Below are positions 37,416 through 55,047 of a stretch of DNA of 57,303 bases, one piece after another. Source of the stretch: Prorocentrum cordatum (taxonomy: Eukaryota). The notes under the pieces were generated by a model. The model was not told where the DNA came from. It did not search any database and saw only the letters and a list, made by a program, of their open reading frames with translations. Location: NCBI GenBank assembly GCA_963575745.1, contig CAUYUJ010000038.1, positions 62,001-119,303 on the forward strand, in the 5' to 3' direction. Positions within the stretch are counted from its first letter, which is position 1, and each line of letters opens with the position of its first letter. A program made the translations under genes and the position numbers.

Positions 37416-37954
37416 GTCACGGGAGCTCTTCGGGCAAAGACCTTCTGTGGGTCCCTGGGGCCACTGGAGGGTAAGAGCTTTCTGCGGGGCCACTGGCACT
37501 CCGACTTCCTTCTTGATGTACCTGCCGTACTTCGGCATCGTGCGGGAAGGCGCAGGGAGAGGTGGCAGGGGAGGTGGCAGGAGAACATGCCGCTTTTCTG
37601 CGCGTGGATGGTTCAGGGGAGGCGGCGAGAAAGCACCGCCTTCTTGCATCGACCGACACGCCCGTCTGCTGAGTACCCTGACGTCCGACGACGTGTTTTT
37701 GTTCTCCGTGCTTTTCTTCCTGATTTTTTGTTGGCGTCCTTGGGGCCCGTGTTTTTTTTCGGCTACTCGGTGATGCGGACAGTCGCGCCCAAACTTGCTC
37801 CTCAGGGCGGCCGCCTGGGATGAGTCCGCCTGGTGAGGCGCAGCTGCTGAAGCGCACCCCGTGGCGAGCAAGACCCGCAAGAGAGAACGCACACTCCTCC
37901 TCCTCCTCCTCCTCCTCCTCCTCCTCCTCCTCCTCCTCCTCCTCCTCCTCCTGG

Positions 37955-38378
37955 GAAACACTTCGTGCTGGAGCTCACGGGCGGCGTGGTGGGCTACGAG
38001 CGCGCCAAGAGGCTGGCCACGCACCTCCGCATGCCGAGCGGGTGGAGGAGCTTCATTGCCGGCGGGCGCAGGATGTACATCAACGTGGACAAGTCCAAGC
38101 GCTCCCTGCGCGTGGAGCTCCACACCAAGCGCCTCGCCCAGGCCCCGGAGGAAGTGCGCGGAGGAGCTGGGCGCTGGTGGCCAAATAAAGCGAAGGGGGA
38201 GGTCAAGTTCGACAACGTGGAGGTGGCCAGCGTCCTGGTCACGGAGGAGGATGTTCCGACGGAGCTGCGCTGGAACAACCCGATGGTGGCGAACCTGGGC
38301 ATCGACAAGAGCAAGGTGCAGGAGGTTTTCAATCGCATGGTCGGCGGCGGGTCCAGGGAGGTCCAGTGGTGTCCCTAA
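37955..38378 (+). CDS. LINE ORF1, C-terminal fragment (5'-truncated)
   Basis: Frame with strong G/C third-position bias (KHFVLELTGG...MYINVDKS...EVQWCP*), directly upstream of ORF2 and starting abruptly after the CTC run. Confidence 0.75.
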
Positions 38379-41300
38379 CACCTGCTCGGCGCGGTGGCGC
38401 CCGTGGCAGTACCAGTACGAGGAAGTATTCAACAGCCCCTTGAAGGTCATCTCGTGGAACGCGCGTGGTCTGCTTCTACGGGATCCTCTTCGTCGGCGGC
38501 GCAAGCTTGCAATCTTGCGGTCGTATATGGCGAAGAAGTATGTGATCATGGTGCAGGAGACGCATGGTGCGGCGGTCATTTTGGAGTCGTTCGTGCGCTC
38601 GCAGCCCTTCCCCTACAAGGTCCACTTCTCTGCTCTTCGTGATGGGCGTGGCGGCGGTGTGGCGACGCTGATCCCGAACGCCGAGCAGCACGAGTGGGAG
38701 GAGATGCATCCGTCGTGGCACCCAGTCTCGACGACTACGGAGCTGGTTCCTGGGCGGGTGCTGATGGTGAAGATCAGCGTGGTGGCGCGGAGGCCCGACT
38801 CGGCGACGCACCTGCCCGCCGAGGCCGACGAGTGCTGCGTCGGAGTCGCCCTCATCAACGTGCACAACCACGAGCTCAGCGCGGAGGACAAGACGAGGGT
38901 GGCGACAGCCTGGCGTGAGGCAGTGAGGGAGGCGCGCAGGTGCCCGCTGCAGGAGCTCTGCGTTGCTGCCGGCGACTTCAACCTTCCAGTGGGCGATCGG
39001 CGCTACTATCGCATGCCGACGCCGACGGCGATGAGGTCCCCCGTGCGCGACCACCAGGCCAGGTCCATCTGGCGGGACCTCTTCGACGAGTGCGTGGAGA
39101 TCAATGGCAAGGATGCCACGCACTACGACAGGCATTCGGACTCCGCCTCTACGCTGGACCGCTTCTTCATCAGCCTGCCGAGGGACGCGTACCCCTGCCT
39201 CCGTGCCACCCGCACGGTCGACGCGGACCCCGCGACGCTGTCGCTGCGCAGGTTGAGTGATCATGGCGTGGTGGGGCTCGTGCTGGGGCTCCGCAAGGAG
39301 AGGCCGATGACGGAGAGGAAGATCCCTGCCTTCGTCTTCAAGTCGCAACAGTATCCAAAGTACTTCAAGGATCTTCATGCTGCTGAACAGGATCTGCTTC
39401 GTAGTCGTGGAGCTGACGGAGACGCTCAAGAGGAGTGGGTTGCCGCCAAGCGGGCCATGGTCTCGGCGGCGAAGGCCACGAGGAACCACATGATTGCGCT
39501 CGCCGATCTGCAGAACGTGTCGCAGGGCGCGGAGCTCAACGCCTTGGTGATGCGATCGGCGGCCAGGACGGTCTGGACGAACGACGGCACCACGGCGCGC
39601 ATGCTGATCCAGTCCTCCCCCTTGGCTCGGAGGCACATGCGCATCCAAGATGGCAAGGTGCTGGCGAACGACACCCTGGCCTTTGGGGAGGCCATGCGCA
39701 CCACCACGGAGCGCATGCTGGACGAGCGGCGTCAAGACGCTGCGAGACGTGCTCGTCGCGCCTTTGCGACGGCGCAGGCTCAGGAGGGCGAGTACTGGAA
39801 GCGGAAGCAGGGCAGCATAGTGAAGAAGGCCCAGCTGTGGCTCCGCAAGCTGCCCGTTTGGCAGCTGAGCGGCGTCAAGGTGTGTGCGACGGAAGAGCTC
39901 CCTGCCCCGCCGGCGCCGGAGAGCGCACCCGTGCGGCCGTCCGACGTCACGGTGAAGAACGCCGACGCCATGCTGGCCGCGGTGCGCGAGTACTGGGGCC
40001 CCATCTTCAGGGAGAAGGGCATCGACGAGGAGGCGGCGAGGGAGTACATCGAGCGGTGGTTCGCTCCTGCCAGCGCGCGCGAGGACTTCGCCTTCAGCGA
40101 GGAGGATCTACTACGCGCAGCTCGGTGTGGACGCGATGCGGCCCGTGGGCCTGACAGGCTGCCCTACGTCGCCTGGGCGCGGTCTCCTGCAGCGGTTGCC
40201 TGGCTGTACCGGCTCTGCCAGGAGGCGCTCGCTGGGTTGGGCTTCCCTGACGGATTCAACCACGGGCTGCTGGTGCTGATTCCGAAGAGCGGGGAGGCGT
40301 TCAGCGCCTCGGAGGTGGTGCGACGGCCTGGAACGCTAAGGCCGCTCATGCTGCTCAACACGGACAGGAAGCTGATCGCGACCGTGGTCAACCACGAACT
40401 CGCCGTGGTGGCGAGGAAGGAGGCCTCGGCGGTCCAGCATGGGTTCGTACGCGGCAGGACGTTCATCCCGAACATCATCAAGCTGGACCTGACGGCGCGC
40501 ACCTTCAGCGCGCTCAGTGAGACGAAGGGCGGGCATCCCGCGCTGATCACGTTCGACGTGAAGGCGGCGTTCCCCAGCGTCAGCCGCCGCTGGATGACGC
40601 TGGTCCTGGACAAGTGCGGCCTCTGCGAGTCCGTGAGGACCCTGATCGCCGCCATGTACGACAAGCAGGTGGCGTGGCTGAGGGTGGGCGAGGACGCGCT
40701 GGAGGCCTTCACGGTCACGGCGGGAGTGGCGCAAGGATGCCCGATGTCGGGCTCGCTCTGGGCATTGCTCTTCTCGCCCTTCCTGGAGCACATGGCCTAC
40801 GTCCTGGACATGCCGTGGCGGTGGGGGTCCTGGAAGCCCGAGCAGCCCATCGTGCAGCGCAAGGGCGATGTGGAGGGCTGCGCGGACGACGTGGGGATGG
40901 TGCTCCGCGACCTGGCCCTGCTGACGCTGATCGGCCCGATCTTCCTGGCGATGCAGACGCTGGCATGCCTGGAGCTCAACCTGTCCAAGTGCTACCTGGT
41001 ACCGCTCTGGGCGCCGATCACGGAGGCGCTCGTGGTCTTCGTGAAGAGCGTGCTCGAGGCGAGCGCCGCGGGCTGGTCGGGCTTCTCGGTCGCCTCCATG
41101 ACGAAGTACTTGGGCTGCTGGCTGGGGCCAGGTGCCGACCTCGCCAGACAGCGGCACGACCCTGCGGCCAAGTACGCGGCGAGGGCGCGGGCGCTGGGCG
41201 CTAGTGCCCTCTCCAACGACGCGGTGGTCCAGGCGTACAACGGGCTGGCGATCCCGTGCCTGCTCTACGTGGCCATGCTGTTCCCGATCCCCGACACGCT

Positions 41301-42309
41301 CGTGGACAAGGAGCTGGACTTGCTGCACGTGCTGCTGCGCGTGCCGCCGAAGTCGTTCAGGAAGGACTGCCTCTTGTCCCTGGGCACCTCCCTGGGCGTC
41401 ACGGCGCCGCTCTCCCTCTTCGCCTCGGCGACGGCTGCGAGGATGAGGGCGGCGATCAAGCTGCCGAGGGACTGGCTCGACCTCCTCGAGGGCGTCGAGA
41501 GCTTCTTCATGGATGTGCAGGGCGAGGCGCTGATCAGGTTGGCGGACTTGCCGACGGGCCTCTTCGCGCCGGCGCGGTGGCGAGACCGCCGCGGACCCGC
41601 GCGTCACCTCAGGGGCGCCTTGGAGTGCCGGACCCCGACCAGCAGGCCCAGGAACCGTCATCGAGTGGAAGCCTGCCTGCGGTCCGCGAAGAGGCGGGCG
41701 CTGGCAGCGGAGGCGGCCTGGCTGGCTCAGGCCCATCGTGAGCGGAGGAAAAAGCGGTTCTCCCTCCAATCCACCCTCCGCTCCATCCTGTCGTCCCTCC
41801 TCTTCCTAGATTCCTTTCCCGTCACCTTCAGGAAGAGGCTTTGTGCGTGGCAGGTCCGTGCGCCCGCCACCCGAGTGTTGGCGCAGATATGGGAGGCGCT
41901 GAAGAGCGTCCTCCGAAATAAAGGGAGGGGGGTGAGGTGGGCGGCGATTAAAGTCATCTGTGGAGCGTGGCCTACAGTGGCCAGAATGCATGTCACGAGC
42001 ACCCGTGCGGCTCCCTGTAAATTCGGCTGTGAGAATGGAGCTGACACGATGTCCCATTATCTGAGGTGTCGGCACCTGTGGTGGGCTGCCTGTTACCCTC
42101 GGGAATTTTGTTCGAGTTCTGTTTTAATGAAGCTTTGTCTTGGGTCCCCCCGTGACCACGCCTCGACCCCCGATGATTCGCTCGATCGGTCGGTCTTGAG
42201 GCTTAGCCTGTCGCACCAGTTGCACGCAATCATTTCGGCGCATCCTGGTTCTGGGCCACAGCACTTACTTCGTTGCCTGGAAGCCGCACGTGCACGCACG
42301 GGTAGGTAG
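38374..42309 (+). CDS. LINE ORF2: AP endonuclease, reverse transcriptase and C-terminal Cys/His knuckle
   Basis: APE motifs: ISWNARG, VQETH, GGGVATL, AGDFN, TLDRF, SDH. RT motifs: GPD, LIPK, RPLMLLNTDRK, QHGFVRGR, FDVKAAFPSV, GVAQGCPMSG, CADD, LNLSKC, KYLG. Knuckle: CKFGC...HYLRC. No stops. The start is not defined by a nearby ATG. Confidence 0.95.
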   Translation, partial: PNTCSARWRPWQYQYEEVFNSPLKVISWNARGLLLRDPLRRRRKLAILRSYMAKKYVIMVQETHGAAVILESFVRSQPFPYKVHFSALRDGRGGGVATLIPNAEQHEWEEMHPSWHPVSTTTELVPGRVLMVKISVVARRPDSATHLPAEADECCVGVALINVHNHELSAEDKTRVATAWREAVREARRCPLQELCVAAGDFNLPVGDRRYYRMPTPTAMRSPVRDHQARSIWRDLFDECVEINGKDATHYDRHSDSASTLDRFFISLPRDAYPCLRATRTVDADPATLSLRRLSDHGVVGLVLGLRKERPMTERKIPAFVFKSQQYPKYFKDLHAAEQDLLRSRGADGDAQEEWVAAKRAMVSAAKATRNHMIALADLQNVSQGAELNALVMRSAARTVWTNDGTTARMLIQSSPLARRHMRIQDGKVLANDTLAFGEAMRTTTERMLDERRQDAARRARRAFATAQAQEGEYWKRKQGSIVKKAQLWLRKLPVWQLSGVKVCATEELPAPPAPESAPVRPSDVTVKNADAMLAAVREYWGPIFREKGIDEEAAREYIERWFAPASAREDFAFSEEDLLRAARCGRDAARGPDRLPYVAWARSPAAVAWLYRLCQEALAGLGFPDGFNHGLLVLIPKSGEAFSASEVVRRPGTLRPLMLLNTDRKLIATVVNHELAVVARKEASAVQHGFVRGRTFIPNIIKLDLTARTFSALSETKGGHPALITFDVKAAFPSVSRRWMTLVLDKCGLCESVRTLIAAMYDKQVAWLRVGEDALEAFTVTAGVAQGCPMSGSLWALLFSPFLEHMAYVLDMPWRWGSWKPEQPIVQRKGDVEGCADDVGMVLRDLALLTLIGPIFLAMQTLACLELNLSKCYLVPLWAPITEALVVFVKSVLEASAAGWSGFSVASMTKYLGCWLGPGADLARQRHDPAAKYAARARALGASALSNDAVVQAYNGLAIPCLLYVAMLFPIPDTLVDKELDLLHVLLRVPPKSFRKDCLLSLGTSLGVTAPLSLFASATAARMRAAIKLPRDWLDLLEGVESFFMDVQGEALIRLADLPTGLFAPARWRDRRGPARHLRGALECRTPTSRPRNRHRVEACLRSAKRRALAAEAAWLAQAHRERRKKRFSLQSTLRSILSSLLFLDSFPVTFRKRLCAWQVRAPATRVLAQIWEALKSVLRNKGRGVRWAAIKVICGAWPTVARMHVTSTRAAPCKFGCENGADTMSHYLRCRHLWWAACYPREFCSSSVLMKLCLGSPRDHASTPDDSLDRSVLRLSLSHQLHAIISAHPGSGPQHLLRCLEAARARTGR

Positions 42310-42464
42310 GCGACTCTTCCTCTGGAGCGACGTTCGCTCCTCCTCCTCCTCCTCCTCCTCCTCCTGGCCCCGCCTCTGTCCTGCTCCTCGGGGTCCTCTG
42401 ATTGATCTGGAGGTTTTGTCTTTTCCGCGCGACTCCCCTGTCGCTTTGCACTTACCCCACTTGG

Positions 42465-43395
42465 TCCTCCTCCTCCTCCTCCTCCTCCTCCTCCTCCACC
42501 TCCTCCGCCTCCTCCTCCCCCTCCTCCCCCTCCTCCTCTCTCCTCCTCCTCCCTCCTCCTCCTCCTCCTCCTCCTCCTCCTCCTCCTCTCTTCCCCCTCC
42601 TCCCCCTCCTCCCCTCCTCCTCCTCCTCCTCCTCCTCCGCCCCCCCCCCCCTCCCCTCCCCTCCCTCTTCCTCCTCCTCCTCCTCCTCCTCCTCCTCCTC
42701 CTCCTCCTCCTCCTTTCAGTGAACCCTTTCAGTGAGGGCTCTGCGGCGCGCCGCCGCTGGGCCCCCGTAGCCCTCCTCCTGCTCCTGTCTCCTCTCTCTC
42801 TCCTCCTCCTCCTCCTCCTCCTCCTCCTCCTCCTCCTCCTCCTCCTCCTCCTCCTCCTCCTCCTCCTCACCGCCGTCGTGATGGCGTGGGGGCGCGGAGG
42901 CGGCCGCAACGCCCACGACCACGCAGGGCCGCCTGCGATCCGATGCGATGCGACTCGATTCGCGGCCTGGGCCCGCGATTCCGGCTCGACTCGATTCGGC
43001 TCGAGGCGCCCGCGTCGGGCCCTGGGCCAGCCGGAGCCTGGCGCGGCGCTCCGAGCTCGATGCGGCGCGGGGCGGTCCGCCCTCCCCCTCTCCTCCTCCT
43101 CCTCCTCCTCCTCCTCCTCCTCCTCCTCCTCCTCCTCCTCCTCCTCCCCTCCTCCTCCTCCTCCTTCCTCCTCCTCCTCCTCCTCCTCGCCTCCTCCTCC
43201 TCCTCCCTCCTCCCTCCTCCTCCTCCTCTCCTCCTCCTCCTCCTCCTCCTCCTCCTCCTCTCTCCTCCTCCTCCTCCTCCTCCTCCTCCTCCTCCTCCTC
43301 CTCCTCCTCCTCCTCCTCCTCCTCCTCCTCCCCTCTCTCCTCCTTCCTCCTCCTCCTCCTCCTCCTCCTCCTCTCCTCCTCCTCCTCCTCCTCCG
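42465..43395. repeat. (CCT)n microsatellite tracts downstream of the LINE
   Basis: Directly visible, interrupted by short GC-rich segments. Confidence 0.93.
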
Positions 43396-45269
43396 ATCCG
43401 TCTCCGATCCGGACCTGATCTCGCGATGCGAGCTGGCGCGGGCCCGCCACGGCGGCGGGCGGCGGCGGCGTCGGCCCGCCGCCCGCGCGCGAGAAGGCCG
43501 CCGGGGGCGAGGCCGGCGCCGGCGCGCCGCCGCCCGCGGCGAGCGCCGCCGTGGACGTGCGGGACCTTCACGGGCGGCGAACCCAGACCCCCTCGAGTAA
43601 TGAAAAAATCATGACGGGAGGTTTTTCCTAATTTTCGGCCTCCGGGGGCCCTCACCGGGCCTCGGGAGCGTCAAAAAACGATTCAGGATGAAAAACCGGT
43701 CATGGGGAAAGGGTCGGGACCTCTGGGGGTCGACGTAATGAAAGAATCATGACGTCGGGGGGTCTGGGAACGGAACTGACAGCAGGAGGTCTTCTCGGCG
43801 CTGCCACAGCATACCGGTATGGTATGTGAAGCGTTCCGTAAAGGGCCTTGCCTTCGAGGATCGGAGGAGTTGCCATGTCTTCCTCGGCGGAAGGCGGCGG
43901 AAGGTGGCGGAAGTAGAACGAGGCCGCCTCCGCCAGCAGACGCCGGCAGAAGGGCGCGGAAGGTGGCGGAAGTAAAAAAAAGGCGTCCCCAAGAGATGAA
44001 CACATTTTTGGGCTCAGGGTGTCCGAAGTCCGCCATGTGTGTGTCGCCCTCCCAGGGGCGACGCGTGCACCGAGACATCCTGTAGTATGCGCGTCGTGGC
44101 GGGCGCTTCCTGGCCACAGCGCTCGGGAAGTGATATACGACAAGATGTATGTACTGGATGTTCGGGTCGGACGCGCGTCTCCAAACAGGACACATCGTAC
44201 TAGTATGTCTCTGTGCGTCCCATCTGCCGTTGCCGAGCGAACAACACGCACCCATGCCGATAGGCGGGGCGGAGGGGGCCATTGGTGCACGTTGTCGGAG
44301 GGGGGCCCCCGCTCGAAGGGGAGCCTCCCCGAAGGCCCGACAGCCCACACCCATACCCATGGTCAGTCTTCCGCCCTCCGACCCCCCTGTGGGTACAGGT
44401 GTGTGCTGTTCGCTCGTTGTTGAATGCTGCTGGAGGTCCCCCCCCAAAGTTCTTGGCTGCAACACACTCTGTGCGCCCCCTGGTTCGCCGTGTCCGTCGT
44501 AGGACGGCGACGGCGACGGCGGCGACGACGGCGAGGGCGGCGACGGCGGCGGCGGAAACGGCGGAAATGACGGCGGAGCAATCGTTGGCCATTATTATGG
44601 GGTGCCGGCAGCTTTTCATTCGCCCCCGAAAATAGCAAAACAAGACCTGTTGGGGGGAATCAAGACACATCGAGTTTACCCAGACCTCTACCGTATTGTT
44701 GCCACTTGGAGCCGCCTCGCAGCGGAAATGAGGGCTCTTGGAAGCATGCGGGAAAATTCGCAGCAGCAGATATGAGTGAGGAGGCTGCTTCGGGGGGGGG
44801 GGTCCTGGAGGATGGGTTGGCCAAGATGCGGTAATATTCTTCTCCCCCTCCCCCTCGTCCACCTCCTCCTCCTCCTCCTCCTCCTCCTCCCTCTCCTTCT
44901 CCTCCTCATCCTCCCACTCCTTCTCCTCCTCCTCCTCCTCCTCCTCCTCCTCCTTCTCCATCTCCTCCTCCTCCTCCTCCTCCTCCTCCTCCTCCTCCTC
45001 CTTCTCCATCTCCTCCTCCCCCTGCCCCTCCTCCTCTCCCTCCATCTCTTCCTCTCCCCTTCCTCCTCCTCCTCCTCCTCCTCCTCCTCCTCCCTCCTCC
45101 TCCTCCTCCTCCTCCTTCTCCTCATCCTTCCTCGCTCCTCCGCTCTCCGCCTCCTCCTCCTCTCCTCTCCTCCTCTCCCCTGGTCCCCCTTTGTCCTCTG
45201 TCACGGGGGACCGCCCAGGGGGGGGGGGGGGGGGGCGACCCCCCAGGATCCCCCCCCCCCCAGGCCCCC

Positions 45270-45502
45270 CTCACCCAGGGACCCCCTCCCGCGACCCCCC
45301 CCCCGCGACCCTTCACTCCAGCCCTGCCAGGGAGGGGTTCAGAGGAAAAGGAGTTCCATTCGAATCAATCACAGCGTTGTTTGAGTTCTGCTTGGCTGGG
45401 CCGCCTGAGGGCAAGGACCCAGGGACAGGGGGGGAGCGGACGACGGCGACAAAGACGAACCAAACGGAAAAACGTTCCACACACGCCGATAGGGTCGGCG
45501 GA
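45270..45502 (+). repeat. Second copy of the hairpin-terminated repeat seen at 11500-11772
   Basis: TTGGCTGG...GCAAGG(A)CCCAGGGA...AACGGAAAA...CACGCCGA(C/T)AGGGTCGGCGGA. Confidence 0.8.
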
Positions 45503-47369
45503 CTCTCCTGCCGCGAGGACTGGCAGCGAGGCCCTCGGGACGCGGACTGGGCCGCGTACCGCGGGCTCGTGGAGCTGCCGAAGCTCCGAGGGCTGCTGGA
45601 GTGCGGGGGCCCCCTCGTCCCCCCGGCCTCGGGGGCAGTGCCTCGGGGGAAGCGGGCCCGAGGTTCGAGGCTCGAGGTCTTGTGCGCTTCCGAGGCTCGA
45701 GGCTCGAGGGGTTCGGGGACCGAGGCTCGAGGCGATGCCCCGGCTTCGGGATGCTGTCCAGCGGCTGAGCCTCGCCGAGAGCGTCCCCGGGGGGGGGCCC
45801 GTATCGCTCGGGGCGGCCGTCGGAGGCCCGAGCTGTGGCGCGGAGGCAGGACGACGAGGCCCACGGGGGGGATAAGGCTCAGGCGGGGGTGCATGGAGGG
45901 TTTCTCGGGGCCTAGGCGCCCCGTCCTCCTCCTCCTCCATTCTCCCTCCTCCTCCTCCTCCTCCTCCTCCTCCTCCTCCTCCATTCTCCCTCCTCCTCCT
46001 CCTCCTCCTCCTCCTCCTCCTTCTCCCTCTTCCTCCTCTCCTCCCTCCTCCCCCCTCCTTCTCCCTCGTTCTACTCCTCCTCCTTCTCCCTCCTTCTCCT
46101 CCTTCTCCTCCTCCTTCCTCCTCCTCCTCCTCCTCCTCCCTTCTCCTCCCTTCTCCTCCCTCCTTCTCCCTCGTTCTACTCCTCGTTCTACTCCTCCTCC
46201 TCCTCCTCCTCCTCCTCCTTCTCCTCCTCGGGTCGCCTACGGCCCCGGGGGGAACCGTTCAGGGAGGCATCGATCCCCAGTCGCCCATTCATCGGCGACA
46301 GAGGCCTGATTCCCCCGCCCCGCCCAGGAACATGCGGATTCTCTTACCGGGGGCGTGTGTCCGATCTATCGGCGAGTGCTCGCTGATTCCAGGTCAGCGT
46401 GTCCCCCCAGGCCCTGAGCTGGAACCGCCTAGCTCTCCCCCACCCTTCCTCACTGCTTCGCGTCGTGAAAAGACCACGAGGTCCCCAGGCACAGACTTTC
46501 GGAGGTCCGCGCATGTTTCGCTGCCTCTCGGAGGTTGTCTCGCCCTGAGATGCTCTCAGCAGCTGCGCCTCGCCGACGGCCGCCTGATGCCGGAGTGCCC
46601 GAGCCGACACCCTCGCGTGACAAAACAGAATCACGACGGACGACGGACGGTTGTTGATGCTTTTCGGCCTCTGGGGGTCCTTGCCAGGCCCCGCGGCCGT
46701 CAAGCATCGACTCGAGAAGTAAAGCCGGTTCCTGTGTGATTAAAAGTTCTAGACCTCGAGGAATCCACGTTGTGAAGCATCACGACATTAGAGGTCTGGG
46801 TCCTCACAGCCACCCCTCCCCCGTGCTCCTCCTTTCTTCTGTCCGAACTCCTTCGCATTCTCCTCTCGTCGCTGTCCTCATCTTCCCCTTCTATCCTTGT
46901 CTCCTTCGTCTCCTCCCTCCCTTTTCTCCTCCATCCTCCATGTCCTCCCTCTATTGCTCTCCCCTCACCACTTCACTCACCTGATCATCCCACTGCTCAC
47001 CCTCATTCTACTCCGCTCCCTTTCCTCTTCCTCCTCCTTCTCGTCCTACTATGTCTCAGTATGTTCCTTCCCATCCTGCTCTCCTTTTCTGGTGCTCATG
47101 TATCCCCCCCTTCATCTTCCTCACTATCCTCTTTCTCATTCTAGCGCTTCTATTCCTTCCTCCAGCCCGCCCTCCTCCCTCTCCTCTCCCTCTCATCTCC
47201 CTCTCCTCTCACTCTCTCTATTCATCCTTCCCCTTATCCTCATCCTCTTCTCCCATCCTCCTCTCCTCATCCTTCTCCTCCTCGTCCTTGTATTCCTTGT
47301 TCCTCCTTATCCTTCCTCCTCTCCCTTCCTCTTCCTTTGCCTTCATCCTGGTCCTCCTCCTCCTCCTCC

Positions 47370-53761: not shown

Positions 53762-53783
53762 TCCGTAGCCATTTTGGCTCAAG
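53762..53783 (+). other. Full-length dinoflagellate spliced leader (DinoSL), genomic copy from a retroposed mRNA
   Basis: TCCGTAGCCATTTTGGCTCAAG is an exact match to DCCGTAGCCATTTTGGCTCAAG, 50 nt upstream of the ATG at 53834. Confidence 0.97.
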
Positions 53784-53833: not shown

Positions 53834-55047
53834 ATGACGCCGACGACATTGGCATTGATTGTCTCAGCCCTGTTGTATGCCATCCTACCTGCTTCTGGCG
53901 AGATCTTCCATCTCGACAAGAGACTCATCCCAGCCGCTTACTCGCTCCAGGGCCTCATGGCCTTCACGGTCTACGTGCCTCTGGATGGGCCGACGGCGCA
54001 AGCTGGGGGCAGCCCTTTTGTCGAGTTCAATGGTGTACAGGCGCACTCTACCGACCTAACAAATGATGATGAGACCCTTGCACACTATGGGAGCTTCCAG
54101 CTCTCGCTGATCAGCATGGACGAGTACGATCAACGTATCAGCAAGGGCCCCACCTGCGACCACAATGGCCAGCTGTCCAACGAAGGAGCCTCCATGTCGA
54201 AGTACAACGTCGGTTTCGGGTTCACCAAGACGCAGTTCATGCACAGCGATATCAACAAGACAGGCGTGCATGTCCTGCTCATGTCGAAGAGTGGAAGCTT
54301 CCCTCAAGACGAGGTAACGGGTCAGGTCGTTGTGAGGAATACGTTCGGTTGCATGTCCGCCATCCAATACCACAAGCTTCGGGAATTCTAGAATGCCTGC
54401 TGATTCTGATCACAGTGGTTTCGTCCTACTCGTCCTACCTTTTCATCCTTGTGATCTCGCAGGGCTGGAGGATGACAGAGGCTCTGGAGGACTGCACGCT
54501 GGTCAAGATTCACGTGTTCGGGCTCATCCGGGTCTATTTTAGAAACTTGCGTGAAGCTGCCATGGTTCATCGGCATTGCTTTCACATCTCCTCCAATTTC
54601 GTGACCATGACGGCCCTTGGCGCTGTGACAACCGCCAGCATACTTTTCGCTTGGATCCTCATGTCCCTCGCCGGGCTCCCCAAGAGCCTCAAGAAGCGCA
54701 ACCTGGAAAACCAGTTGAAGGCGGTCTCCCGTTTTGCCGTCGCCTTTCTCGTCGGGGTCGTCGCGAGCGTCCTAGGGGCGCTCGTCCAGCTCCTGGACTG
54801 CCTGGGCTCCCTGGCAGCTCCTTGGAAGCACCAGTACCTCGCCGATGGCGGCCTTGCACATGTCATCATCGTTATGTGGATGTGGATGCCGTCGGCCGAC
54901 TCGGGGCAGCTGGGCTACGCCGCCCCGATCTGCCAGAACGACGATGACGGCCTGTGGAAGGAGGACGTCGCCGACAAGTACGCGGAAGAGAACGGTGGCA
55001 GCAAGATCGCCTTGGCCGCTGTTGGAGCGGCGGACGATGACCTCTGA
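53834..55047 (+). pseudogene. Processed pseudogene of a GOST/lung seven-transmembrane receptor family protein (TMEM87/GPR107-like)
   Basis: Signal-peptide-like start. RNTFGCMSAIQYHKL resembles NPYGYL..EY.KL. LVISQGW, WILMSL...LKKR, WKHQYL and WMWMPSADS..LGY resemble the family's TM-region motifs. Intronless. A frame change near 54380 coincides with apparent loss of the first TM helices. Confidence 0.8.

What the first reader, a model, noticed from the sequence alone, without database searches (positions are those of the whole stretch)
38367..38409. Candidate programmed +1 ribosomal frameshift (CCC-TAA plus 3' hairpin) joining LINE ORF1 to ORF2
Seen: ORF1 ends TGG TGT CCC TAA (stop at 38376-38378). 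ORF2 is in the +1 frame and reads CCT AAC ACC through this point. There is no ATG between the stop and the first APE motif (SWNARG); the next ATG, at 38527, would omit that motif. A hairpin, CTGC-TC-GGCGC-ggtg-GCGCC-cgtg-GCAG (38382-38409), begins 3 nt after the stop. Known: CCC-stop is a +1 shifty site where tRNA-Pro re-pairs on CCU (CCC-UAA in phages PSA and SPP1), and 3' structures stimulate +1 shifting in antizyme. Inference: this LINE may make an ORF1-ORF2 fusion by +1 frameshifting, unlike the reinitiation known for mammalian L1. An alternative is an upstream in-frame ATG at 38251 inside ORF1.
Basis: partly seen in the sequence, partly recalled or inferred. Interest (0 to 1): 0.8.

Follow-up and report, generated by a model that had tools for sequence, protein, structure and literature searches.

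The report
Dinoflagellate LINE: ORF2 overlaps ORF1
This is a truncated copy of a dinoflagellate jumping gene whose second gene has no start codon of its own and lies one base out of step with the first, and relatives suggest that ribosomes read the second frame right across the first gene rather than slipping only at its stop codon.

Summary
ORF1 ends TGG TGT CCC TAA (stop at 38376-38378). ORF2 (endonuclease plus reverse transcriptase) is in the +1 frame. It has no ATG before the SWNARG motif. A hairpin sits at 38382-38409.

The element is a 5'-truncated dinoflagellate LINE. A metagenome relative (L001, ORF1 76% amino-acid identity over 139 aligned codons) has the same junction. All 4 substitutions in the 31 nt after the stop are ORF2-frame third positions.

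The proposed mechanism is only partly supported:
- The hairpin is not exceptional (z -1.26) and shows no covariation.
- The last ORF1 residue is Pro in only 5 of 57 family members.

The main new finding is that the ORF2 frame is kept free of stops across all of ORF1:
- L001 has 0 stops in 408 codons, against 3.6-7.7 expected.
- Across 65 ORF1-family proteins, Met is followed by an A-starting codon (an unavoidable +1 TGA) in only 11 of 253 cases, against 52.6 expected.
- ORF2 controls show no such depletion.

A shift at the stop codon does not predict this. Ribosomes probably enter the +1 frame upstream, most simply by leaky scanning; in L001 the next four AUGs after the ORF1 AUG are all in the +1 frame. 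A shift at CCC-UAA and reinitiation near 38440 remain rivals.

This looks like a new variant of LINE ORF2 expression. Interest is moderate to high.

The parts
37894..37952 (.). (CTC)n microsatellite, 19.7 copies, directly next to the 5' truncation point of the LINE copy
   Evidence: Tandem Repeats Finder. Homology to L001 starts at about 37953.
37953..38378 (+). ORF1 remnant: the C-terminal domain (141 codons plus TAA) of a conserved dinoflagellate LINE ORF1 family. The N-terminal ~270 codons seen in L001 are missing.
   Evidence: 71 hits with E<=1e-3. 76% amino-acid identity to L001 in this frame, against 47% and 46% in the other two frames. AF2 model pLDDT 91. No Pfam family.
37837..38373 (+). 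Stop-free stretch of the ORF2 (+1) frame overlapping the ORF1 remnant
   Evidence: 0 stops in 141 codons, against 5.26 (codon-order shuffle, P 0.001) or 2.44 (synonymous shuffle, P 0.024) expected.
38251..38253 (+). ORF2-frame ATG inside ORF1. It is the only one in the remnant and is not conserved in L001.
38373..38378 (+). CCC TAA: the last sense codon and stop of ORF1, and the proposed +1 shift site
   Evidence: Identical in L001.
38382..38409 (+). Hairpin (5-bp outer stem, 5-bp GC inner stem, GGUG loop), which also encodes the conserved ORF2-frame peptide TCSARWRPWQ
   Evidence: -17 kcal/mol, z -1.26. Kept in L001 with 0 compensatory changes.
38410..38439 (+). Variable linker: 13 of 30 nt differ from L001, with no indel. 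One X3 contig has a net +1 indel here.
38440..38442 (+). TTG codon (Leu23 of the ORF2 reading), 3 codons before the APE profile starts. It is CTG in L001 and in most laid contigs, and ATG in one loose end. Candidate (re)initiation codon.
   Evidence: 38440 T>C; X3 loose end at 38439.
38374..42309 (+). ORF2: APE endonuclease (38449-39264) and reverse transcriptase (40279-40797), 1311 codons, stop TAG at 42307-42309
   Evidence: P0077 is 78% identical over the RT part.
38527..38529 (+). First ORF2-frame ATG after the ORF1 stop. It lies downstream of the SWN motif, so it cannot give a complete endonuclease.
   Evidence: The Met is conserved in L001.
42310..42365 (+). Short 3' UTR (27 nt) followed by (CTC)n (42337-42365). 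This may be the 3' tail or the target microsatellite.

Best explanation
Window 37953-42365 is a 5'-truncated, otherwise intact copy of a dinoflagellate APE-type LINE. ORF1 encodes the C-terminal domain of a widespread ORF1 family. ORF2 (APE plus RT) follows in the +1 frame without an AUG of its own.

The most likely way ORF2 is decoded in full-length family members is that ribosomes are already in the +1 frame well upstream of the ORF1 stop. On this reading the ORF2 frame is one long open frame that overprints all of ORF1.

The simplest route into that frame is leaky scanning past the ORF1 AUG to +1-frame AUGs a few dozen nucleotides downstream. Alternative initiation on 5'-shortened or trans-spliced RNAs is a variant of the same idea.

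On this reading:
- CCC-TAA is just the ORF1 stop.
- The 12 codons after it are translated ORF2 leader.
- The hairpin is at most an accessory.

Shown:
- The anatomy.
- The conservation of phase.
- ORF2-frame coding right after the stop.
- Family-wide avoidance of +1 stops.

Inferred:
- That this avoidance reflects translation.
- That entry into the frame is by initiation rather than slippage.
For: 1. L001's ORF1 (408 codons) has 0 stops in the +1 frame. Codon-order shuffles expect 7.65 (0 of 5000 reach 0). Synonymous shuffles expect 3.57 (P 0.005). The window remnant also has 0, against 5.26 and 2.44 expected. The +1 frame of ORF2 itself is not depleted (39 stops, against 42-44 expected).

2. 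Protein-level test. ATG followed by an A-starting codon gives an unavoidable +1 TGA.
- In 65 ORF1-family sequences (the window plus 64 database hits, which are representatives of clusters at 50% identity; 15,670 aa), 11 of 253 internal Met are followed by I/M/T/N/K.
- Shuffles expect 52.6 (sd 6.4, minimum 33 in 2000 shuffles).
- 60 of 65 proteins have none, against 31.2 expected.
- Only M (4.3%), L (13.1%) and V (15.0%) are depleted. The other 17 residues range from 17.5% to 31%. The 'preceded by' control for M is 19.4%.
- Two further relatives left out of the alignment add 0 of 14.

3. The ORF2 control set gives 17 of 131 Met (13%), with I/M/T/N/K making up 12-16% of residues.

4. The depletion is equal in the N-terminal part (4 of 124) and in the C-terminal domain (7 of 129). 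This argues for one entry point near the 5' end.

5. Codon level. In ORF1, L and V before A-starting codons are always CTC or GTC (L001 3/3 and 1/1; window 1/1 and 2/2). ORF2 uses CTG/TTG in 18 of 29 such cases and GTG in 10 of 21.

6. In L001 the ORF1 AUG is at 241, with a pyrimidine at -3. The next four AUGs (299, 314, 419, 647) are all in the ORF2 frame. That frame is open from 155 into ORF2.

7. After the stop, 4 of 4 substitutions in 38379-38409 are ORF2-frame third positions. PNTCSARWRPWQ is identical in the window and L001.
Against: - DNA is available for only two family members (the window and L001). The family-wide evidence is indirect, from proteins.
- The +1-frame peptide across ORF1 is not conserved: 47% identity, the same as the third frame at 46%. 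Only openness is selected, not sequence.
- +1-frame ATGs are not enriched in L001's ORF1 (5 observed, 3.84 expected).
- Judging the ORF1 AUG context as weak uses the vertebrate Kozak rule, which I recalled. It is untested in dinoflagellates.
- Off-frame stops in the +2 frame of L001's ORF1 are also fewer than expected (7 against 15). Some general bias therefore exists.
- Five family proteins (P0036, P0047, P0048, P0070, P0071) break the rule.
- One X3 contig has a net +1 indel in the linker and apparently an ATG at 38440. This suggests a stop-spacer-AUG arrangement in some lineages.
- The position of the ORF1 stop is strikingly fixed. 57 of 59 proteins end 1-3 residues after a conserved Trp. 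This model does not require that.
Confidence: 0.45

Rival explanations
1. Programmed +1 ribosomal frameshift at CCC-UAA. Peptidyl-tRNA-Pro slips from CCC to CCU while the stop sits in the A site, helped by the hairpin 3 nt downstream. The product is an ORF1-ORF2 fusion.
For: - CCC TAA and the +1 phase are identical in the window and L001.
- No laid contig has an indel between 38338 and 38426.
- The ORF2 frame shows a coding pattern immediately after the stop (0/0/4).
- The hairpin stems are kept in L001. 3 of the 4 substitutions fall in unpaired positions and 1 at the closing pair. My hand count gives 6/126 = 0.048 among degenerate third positions.
- The ORF1 stop position is fixed in the family (57 of 59).
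- CCC_UGA is a known +1 site in Listeria phages, E. coli pheL and rare antizymes (PMC5009743, passages read).
- +1 frameshifting or reinitiation was proposed for Paramecium LINE groups 1-2 (PMC5405496, passage read).
Against: - It does not predict a stop-free +1 frame through all of ORF1.
- The hairpin is no better than shuffles (z -1.26; 18 of 200), and 14 similar hairpins occur in 4.36 kb.
- There are 0 compensatory pairs.
- Synonymous-site conservation at the junction (2 of 12) is matched elsewhere in ORF1.
- The last ORF1 residue is Pro in only 5 of 57.
- CCC_UGA worked poorly in mammalian cells according to the review.
Confidence: 0.17
2. Termination-reinitiation, or another non-AUG initiation, downstream of the ORF1 stop. 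The ribosome restarts at or near codon 38440 (TTG here, CTG in most relatives, ATG in one), 61 nt after the stop. The conserved hairpin acts as a tethering or pausing element, as in SART1 or human L1.
For: - There is no AUG, but a near-cognate TTG/CTG sits 3 codons before the APE profile start.
- 38440 T>C is the majority form in X1-X3.
- One X3 loose end reads ATG at that place.
- An X3 contig has a net +1 indel limited to the linker at 38427-38435. All other listed indel sets preserve the frame.
- The linker at 38410-38439 evolves like non-coding or unconstrained sequence: 4, 6 and 2 differences at codon positions 1, 2 and 3 (my hand count).
- SART1 uses UAAUG plus a downstream structure (PMC3894237, passage read).
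- Human L1 ORF2 reinitiation without need of an AUG is recalled, not read here.
Against: - It does not predict the conserved +1 phase or the stop-free +1 frame through ORF1.
- The 4 of 4 third-position substitutions right after the stop are unexpected for a purely structural spacer. My hand count gives 1/165 that the 3 unpaired-site changes are all third positions.
- The ATG-bearing relative rests on a single contig of depth about 3 in a metagenome and may be a dead copy.
Confidence: 0.18
3. Dispersed +1 slippage. Ribosomes shift +1 at many low-efficiency sites along ORF1, with CCC-UAA as the last chance. Any shift gives an ORF1(N-part)-ORF2 fusion, and the sum sets a low ORF2:ORF1 ratio.
For: - It explains the open +1 frame, the lack of an AUG, and the coding pattern after the stop.
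- It keeps a role for CCC-UAA.
Against: - Selection on the 5' part of ORF1 would be weak under this model. Yet depletion there (4 of 124) is as strong as in the 3' domain (7 of 129).
- I know of no precedent for such a strategy in a retroelement.
Confidence: 0.1
4. The stop-free +1 frame is not linked to ORF2 expression. It could be a by-product of codon-pair or composition bias special to ORF1, or a separate overprinted peptide. ORF2 would then be expressed from another RNA form, for example an internally trans-spliced one.
For: - +2-frame stops are also reduced in L001's ORF1 (7 against 15) and in the window's ORF2 (21 against 30).
- The LINE RNA is clearly trans-spliced: DinoSL at L001 69-90 and a relict at 149-169.
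Against: - The amino-acid-level depletion is specific to M, L and V before A-starting codons. It is absent for W (31%) and for all other residues.
- It is absent in ORF2 of the same elements.
- No SL relict lies near the junction in the window or in L001.
Confidence: 0.1

Closest known systems
Paramecium (ciliate) LINE groups 1-2 (PMC5405496, passage read)
   Same: - Alveolate APE-type LINEs with an ORF1.
- The authors infer that ORF2 depends on +1 ribosomal frameshifting or reinitiation.
[quoted passage not shown]
   Different: - The Paramecium ORF1 ends in a zinc finger; here it is an unrelated alpha/beta domain with no Pfam match.
- No stop-free ORF2 frame across ORF1 is mentioned in the passage I read.
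- The mechanism was not tested there either.
SART1 of Bombyx: UAAUG stop-start coupling with a downstream RNA structure (as summarised in PMC3894237, passage read)
   Same: - ORF1 stop and ORF2 beginning are adjacent.
- An RNA structure lies just downstream of the junction.
   Different: - There is no overlapping or nearby AUG here. The nearest ORF2-frame ATGs are 38251 and 38527.
Human L1 ORF2 translation by unconventional termination-reinitiation
   Same: - Bicistronic LINE RNA.
- ORF2 start independent of an AUG.
- A short spacer of about 60 nt, if ORF2 starts at 38440.
   Different: - In L1 the ORF2 frame is not open across ORF1 and the spacer holds in-frame stops (recalled).
- Here the ORF2 frame is continuous and kept open.
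+1 shift sites of the CCC_UGA type (Listeria phages PSA and A500, E. coli pheL, rare antizymes; PMC5009743, passages read)
   Same: - A Pro CCC codon in the P site followed by a stop.
- The +1 frame codon CCU is also Pro.
   Different: - The stop here is UAA, not UGA.
- This is a eukaryotic nuclear setting.
- The site is not conserved in the family.
- The stimulator is not supported by covariation.
Drosophila TART-B1: gag stop, then 37 nt, then a +1-frame start codon (PMC5009743, passage read)
   Same: - A non-LTR element with pol in the +1 frame just after the gag stop.
   Different: - TART has an AUG; this element has none before the catalytic motif.
+1-frame overlapping genes reached by leaky scanning in RNA viruses (PMC2832772; search listing and abstract only)
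   Same: - The second AUG is in the +1 frame.
- A long overlapping frame is kept open.
- The overprinted frame has little sequence conservation.
   Different: - There the overlapping ORF is a separate short protein.
- Here the overlap would be a ~390-codon leader fused to the element's polymerase.

Membership tests
APE-type non-LTR retrotransposon (LINE) | ORF2 with an N-terminal apurinic-like endonuclease followed by a reverse transcriptase | tested here: met
   PF03372 at residues 26-297 (E 1.2e-10) and PF00078 at residues 636-808 (E 6.4e-12), both above the curated cut-offs.
APE-type non-LTR retrotransposon (LINE) | An upstream ORF1, 5' truncation of copies, and a simple-repeat or poly(A) 3' tail | tested here: met
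   - ORF1 family of 71 hits.
- The window copy starts mid-ORF1 relative to L001.
- (CTC)n lies 27 nt after the ORF2 stop.
- Target-site duplication was not examined.
Programmed +1 ribosomal frameshift site | The downstream ORF is in the +1 phase, lacks its own start, and keeps that phase in relatives | tested here: met
   Window and L001. No indel between 38338 and 38426 in any laid contig.
Programmed +1 ribosomal frameshift site | A shift-prone last zero-frame codon plus a slow A-site codon or stop, conserved among relatives | tested here: inconclusive
   CCC-TAA is present in both DNA relatives. At family level the last residue is Pro in only 5 of 57. The codons of the others could not be seen.
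Programmed +1 ribosomal frameshift site | A 3' stimulatory structure that is conserved, with covariation | tested here: inconclusive
   The hairpin is present and kept in L001, but z is -1.26 and there are 0 compensatory pairs from 2 sequences.
Programmed +1 ribosomal frameshift site | A trans-frame protein product | not testable with these tools
   This needs mass spectrometry, a reporter or Ribo-seq.
Termination-reinitiation coupling (SART1 / calicivirus type) | A restart codon (AUG) overlapping or close to the upstream stop | tested here: not met
   No ATG between 38338 and 38526. Only near-cognate TTG/CTG at 38440.
Leaky-scanning overlapping ORF | The next AUG(s) after the first are in the alternative frame, with no intervening AUG in another frame, and that frame stays open | tested here: met
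   In L001 the AUG order is 241 (frame 0), then 299, 314, 419 and 647 (all +1). The frame is open from 155 to the contig end. This rests on one full-length sequence only.
Leaky-scanning overlapping ORF | The first AUG is in a weak context | tested here: inconclusive
   L001 has a pyrimidine at -3 of AUG 241, and G/A at -3 of AUGs 299 and 419. The context rule for dinoflagellates is not known to me.
L1-type ORF1p (coiled coil - RRM - CTD) | An RRM plus CTD fold in the C-terminal half | tested here: inconclusive
   - The AF2 model has pLDDT 91.
- Foldseek lists human L1 ORF1p only at E 0.16-0.2 (ranks 8-9).
- The best wide VIA-align match is Z 7.2, to biotin-ligase-like chains, in the range the tool calls unspecific.

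The most novel reading that the evidence does not exclude
A whole family of dinoflagellate LINEs keeps the ORF2 reading frame open across the entire ~400-codon ORF1. The endonuclease/reverse transcriptase would then be made as an N-terminally extended protein. Its leader would be the +1-frame 'shadow' of ORF1, reached by leaky scanning on SL-capped RNA or by pervasive +1 slippage. Selection would act only on the absence of stops. To my knowledge (recalled), this ORF2 expression strategy has not been described for any retroelement; my four literature searches did not ask for it specifically.
Probability: 0.45. Interest if true: 0.8.

Novelty: new variant of a known kind. Interest (0 to 1): 0.65.

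Why it matters
How LINE ORF2 gets translated is an open question. The review PMC3894237 says so in the passage I read.

Dinoflagellates owe much of their gene content to retroposition (PMC6050394). Even so, the expression logic of their LINEs is undescribed in the papers my searches found.

This work adds a family-wide, statistically strong and easily testable signature: a stop-free +1 frame over ORF1. The signature:
- gives a concrete handle on the ORF2 translation mechanism;
- offers a sequence-only diagnostic, the depletion of M/L/V before A-starting codons, that can be run on any ORF1 collection;
- would, if translation of the overlap is confirmed, add a new way to set the ORF1:ORF2 ratio.

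It also cautions against reading 'shifty codon plus stop plus hairpin' as a frameshift site in GC-rich genomes, where such hairpins are common.

Tried and rejected
- **Own genome.** None is held. There is no second copy of the element in the window (tblastn).
- **DNA of relatives.**
  - A single-protein scan of metagenome contigs found nothing. A second scan with P0003 gave L001.
  - Viral contigs gave nothing.
  - Genome contigs gave 0 loci.
- **Protein searches for ORF2 N-termini.** They gave 1 hit each. The only close one, P0076, starts at the internal Met that corresponds to 38527, so it says nothing about the junction.
- **The four long 'hits' P0019, P0025, P0028 and P0030.** These are repeat proteins, not relatives, and were dropped. 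P0029 is a chimeric gene model that splices out the junction and was also dropped. P0012 and P0063 were left out of alignment A1 and counted separately.
- **RNA evidence.** No RNA holder is listed. All four laid runs are contigs, so nothing can be said about expression, transcript ends or trans-splicing at ORF2.
- **Synonymous-site conservation.** It gave no distinct peak at the junction.
- **ORF1 fold.** No convincing PDB match.
- **2A-like motif in the +1 leader.** I looked by eye for an NPGP-type motif and saw none. No tool was used.


Full report
**What is there**

The window is GC-rich (55-67%). It holds an exact DinoSL at 53763-53783. The DinoSL sequence was confirmed in a passage of PMC6050394.

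At 37837-42309 one frame is open for 1490 codons. From 38374 it encodes an APE endonuclease (PF03372, residues 26-297) and a reverse transcriptase (PF00078, residues 636-808).

Upstream, a second frame (37851-38378) ends TGG TGT CCC TAA. ORF2 is +1 relative to this frame. No ATG lies between 38338 and 38526. The ORF2-frame ATGs are 38251 (inside ORF1) and 38527 (after SWNARG). The hairpin at 38382-38409 folds at -17.0 kcal/mol.

**ORF1 is real, and this copy is truncated**

The last 141 codons of the ORF1 frame matched 71 proteins at E<=1e-3 among 1.84 billion cluster representatives.
- Four of these are repeat proteins.
- One is a gene model from Prorocentrum cordatum.
- The rest are proteins of 51-712 aa in which the match lies at the C-terminus.

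In an alignment of the window plus 64 hits, 59 keep a near-invariant Trp. Of these, 57 end 1-3 residues after it.

Dropped before that alignment were P0019, P0025, P0028, P0029 and P0030. P0012 and P0063 were left out by oversight and were counted separately.

The domain has no Pfam match. It gives a confident AF2 model (pLDDT 91). It has no convincing PDB match:
- Foldseek lists human L1 ORF1p only at E 0.16-0.2.
- The best wide VIA-align match is Z 7.2, to biotin-ligase-like chains.

**A DNA relative**

One metagenome contig, L001 (2007 nt), carries a full ORF1 (ATG 241, stop 1465-1467, 408 codons) and the first 180 codons of ORF2.

Its ORF1 is preceded by a complete DinoSL (69-90) and a relict with 5 mismatches (149-169). 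The LINE RNA is therefore SL trans-spliced and has been retroposed more than once.

Homology of the window to L001 begins at about 37953, next to a (CTC)n array. The window copy is thus 5'-truncated and lacks about 270 ORF1 codons.

**The junction in the relative**

L001 is 83% identical in nucleotides. It has the same TGG TGT CCC TAA, the same +1 phase, and no ATG before SWNARG.

| Region | Differences at codon positions 1/2/3 | Amino-acid identity |
|---|---|---|
| ORF1 piece, read in ORF1 frame | 27/19/64 of 139 each | 76% |
| ORF1 piece, read in ORF2 frame | 19/64/27 of 139 each | 47% |
| ORF1 piece, read in third frame | not computed | 46% |
| 38379-38409, read in ORF2 frame | 0/0/4 | PNTCSARWRPWQ identical |

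The next 30 nt differ at 13 places without an indel. After that the APE domain is conserved (13/7/52).

The window's ATG 38251 is not conserved in L001.

Logan contigs from four coded runs, laid at >=80% likeness, show no indel between 38338 and 38426 (table 4). 277 of the variant positions were not shown, so the absence of listed substitutions there proves little.

**The hairpin**

- 18 of 200 shuffles fold as well (z -1.26). In 104 nt of context z is +1.14.
- 1.5% of 34-nt windows of the element reach -17 kcal/mol, at 14 places in 4356 nt.
- L001 keeps the stems, and there are 0 compensatory pairs.
- Of the four substitutions, three are in unpaired positions and one is at the closing pair.
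- By my hand count this is mildly unlikely under coding constraint alone (6/126). It is also unlikely under structural constraint alone (1/165 that all three unpaired changes fall on third positions). Both constraints may therefore act, but this rests on a single pair of sequences.
- Synonymous-site conservation near the junction (2 of 12) is matched elsewhere in ORF1.

**The unexpected result**

In L001 the ORF2 frame is open from 155, across all of ORF1, into ORF2. Stops in the +1 frame compare with expectation as follows:

| Region | Observed | Codon-order shuffle | Synonymous shuffle |
|---|---|---|---|
| L001 ORF1 (408 codons) | 0 | 7.65 (0 of 5000 shuffles reach 0) | 3.57 (P 0.005) |
| Window ORF1 remnant (141 codons) | 0 | 5.26 (P 0.001) | 2.44 (P 0.024) |
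| Window ORF2 (control) | 39 | 42.2 | 43.6 |

I could not fetch DNA for the other relatives, so I used a protein-level proxy. ATG followed by any A-starting codon makes an unavoidable TGA in the +1 frame.
- In the 65 aligned ORF1 sequences (15,670 aa), 11 of 253 internal Met are followed by I/M/T/N/K.
- Residue shuffles expect 52.6 (sd 6.4, minimum 33 of 2000).
- All 11 cases are in five proteins. 60 of 65 proteins have none, against 31.2 expected.

The depletion is specific:
- Only Met (4.3%), Leu (13.1%) and Val (15.0%) are depleted. Their codons can end in TG or TA.
- The other 17 residues range from 17.5% to 31%, including Trp at 31%.
- Met preceded by those residues is 19.4%.

The depletion is equal in the N-terminal parts (4 of 124) and in the C-terminal domain (7 of 129).

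ORF2 proteins of the same kind of element show 17 of 131 (13%), at a composition of 12-16%.

At codon level:
- Leu and Val before A-starting codons in ORF1 are always CTC or GTC (L001 3/3 and 1/1; window 1/1 and 2/2).
- ORF2 uses CTG/TTG in 18 of 29 such cases and GTG in 10 of 21.

**Interpretation**

A shift made at the ORF1 stop, or reinitiation after it, gives no reason to keep the +1 frame open for 400 codons upstream. Translation of that frame does.

The constraint is as strong at the 5' end as at the 3' end, so a single entry point near the start of ORF1 is the simplest reading.

L001 fits leaky scanning. The ORF1 AUG (241) has a pyrimidine at -3. The next four AUGs (299, 314, 419, 647) are all in the ORF2 frame.

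I therefore rank the explanations as follows:

| Explanation | Confidence |
|---|---|
| Upstream entry into the +1 frame | 0.45 |
| Programmed shift at CCC-UAA | 0.17 |
| Reinitiation or non-AUG start near 38440 | 0.18 |
| Dispersed slippage | 0.10 |
| Unrelated bias or another RNA form | 0.10 |

**Points against my ranking**
- The overlap peptide is not conserved.
- +1 AUGs are not enriched (5 observed, 3.84 expected).
- +2-frame stops are also somewhat reduced.
- Five proteins break the rule.
- One low-depth contig has a net +1 indel in the linker, and a 21-nt loose end reads ATG where the window has TTG.
- The fixed position of the ORF1 stop is unexplained.

**Comparison with known systems**

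- Paramecium LINEs were inferred to need +1 frameshifting or reinitiation for ORF2, and they end in short nucleotide repeats (PMC5405496, passage read).
- SART1 couples UAAUG with a downstream structure. The same review calls ORF2 initiation an open question (PMC3894237, passages read).
- CCC_UGA is a known +1 site, TART-B1 has a +1-frame start 37 nt after the gag stop, and Perkinsus mitochondria shift at CCCU (PMC5009743, passages read).
- I did not see a stop-free ORF2 frame across ORF1 mentioned in the passages, listings and abstracts I read. None of those searches asked for it specifically, and no paper was read in full, so this is not evidence that it is unpublished.

**Limits**

- DNA-level evidence comes from two sequences.
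- There is no RNA or protein evidence.
- The contigs behind the other family members could not be read.
- Supplements of the cited papers were not opened.

Noticed in passing
L001:69-90 and L001:149-169: A full-length relative of the LINE begins with a complete 22-nt DinoSL. A 5-mismatch relict SL lies 80 nt further in, upstream of the ORF1 ATG (241). The LINE's own RNA is therefore SL trans-spliced and has been retroposed repeatedly.
   Followed up: partly
window 37894-37952 and 42337-42365; L001:56-70: (CTC)n/(CCT)n sits directly 5' of both the truncated window copy and the SL of L001, and 27 nt after the window ORF2 stop. Possible explanations are a trinucleotide-repeat 3' tail, insertion into (CTC)n arrays, or head-to-tail copies. 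L001:30-40 and window ~42409 share a short GGAGGTTTT motif, which hints at a common 3' UTR.
   Followed up: partly
window 53763-53783, 53835, 54073-55044: An exact DinoSL lies 52 nt upstream of an ATG and is preceded by (GAG)n. Downstream, the ORF at 54073-55044 matches the GOST seven-transmembrane domain (PF06814, E 6.3e-10). This is probably a retrogene.
   Followed up: partly
window 42465-43394 and 44780-46300: There are very long imperfect (TCC)n/(CCT)n arrays, of about 134 and 105 copies. They create long spurious ORFs on both strands.
   Followed up: no
P0076 (matches window 38527-38844): A 106-aa protein is 87% identical to the ORF2 endonuclease. Its source (EukProt) labels it Pyramimonas sp., a green alga. 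This suggests contamination or a shared element.
   Followed up: no
P0036, P0047, P0048, P0070, P0071: The only five ORF1-family proteins with Met followed by I/M/T/N/K. P0048 and P0071 share a C-terminal motif, so the +1-frame constraint may have been lost in particular lineages.
   Followed up: no
L001:241-1464: Stops in the +2 frame of ORF1 are also fewer than shuffles expect (7 against about 15, P 0.002-0.004). The window ORF2 shows a milder effect (21 against 30). This is unexplained general off-frame stop depletion.
   Followed up: no
window 38427-38440 (run X3 contigs): A low-depth metagenome contig has indels of -1, +1 and +1 in the linker. A 21-nt loose end reads ATG where the window has TTG. 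This may be a sister lineage with a conventional stop-spacer-AUG junction.
   Followed up: partly
window 37953-38375 (ORF1 C-terminal domain): A conserved alpha/beta domain, confidently modelled (pLDDT 91), with no Pfam family and no clear PDB match. An N-terminal coiled-coil-like region is present in the longer relatives.
   Followed up: partly
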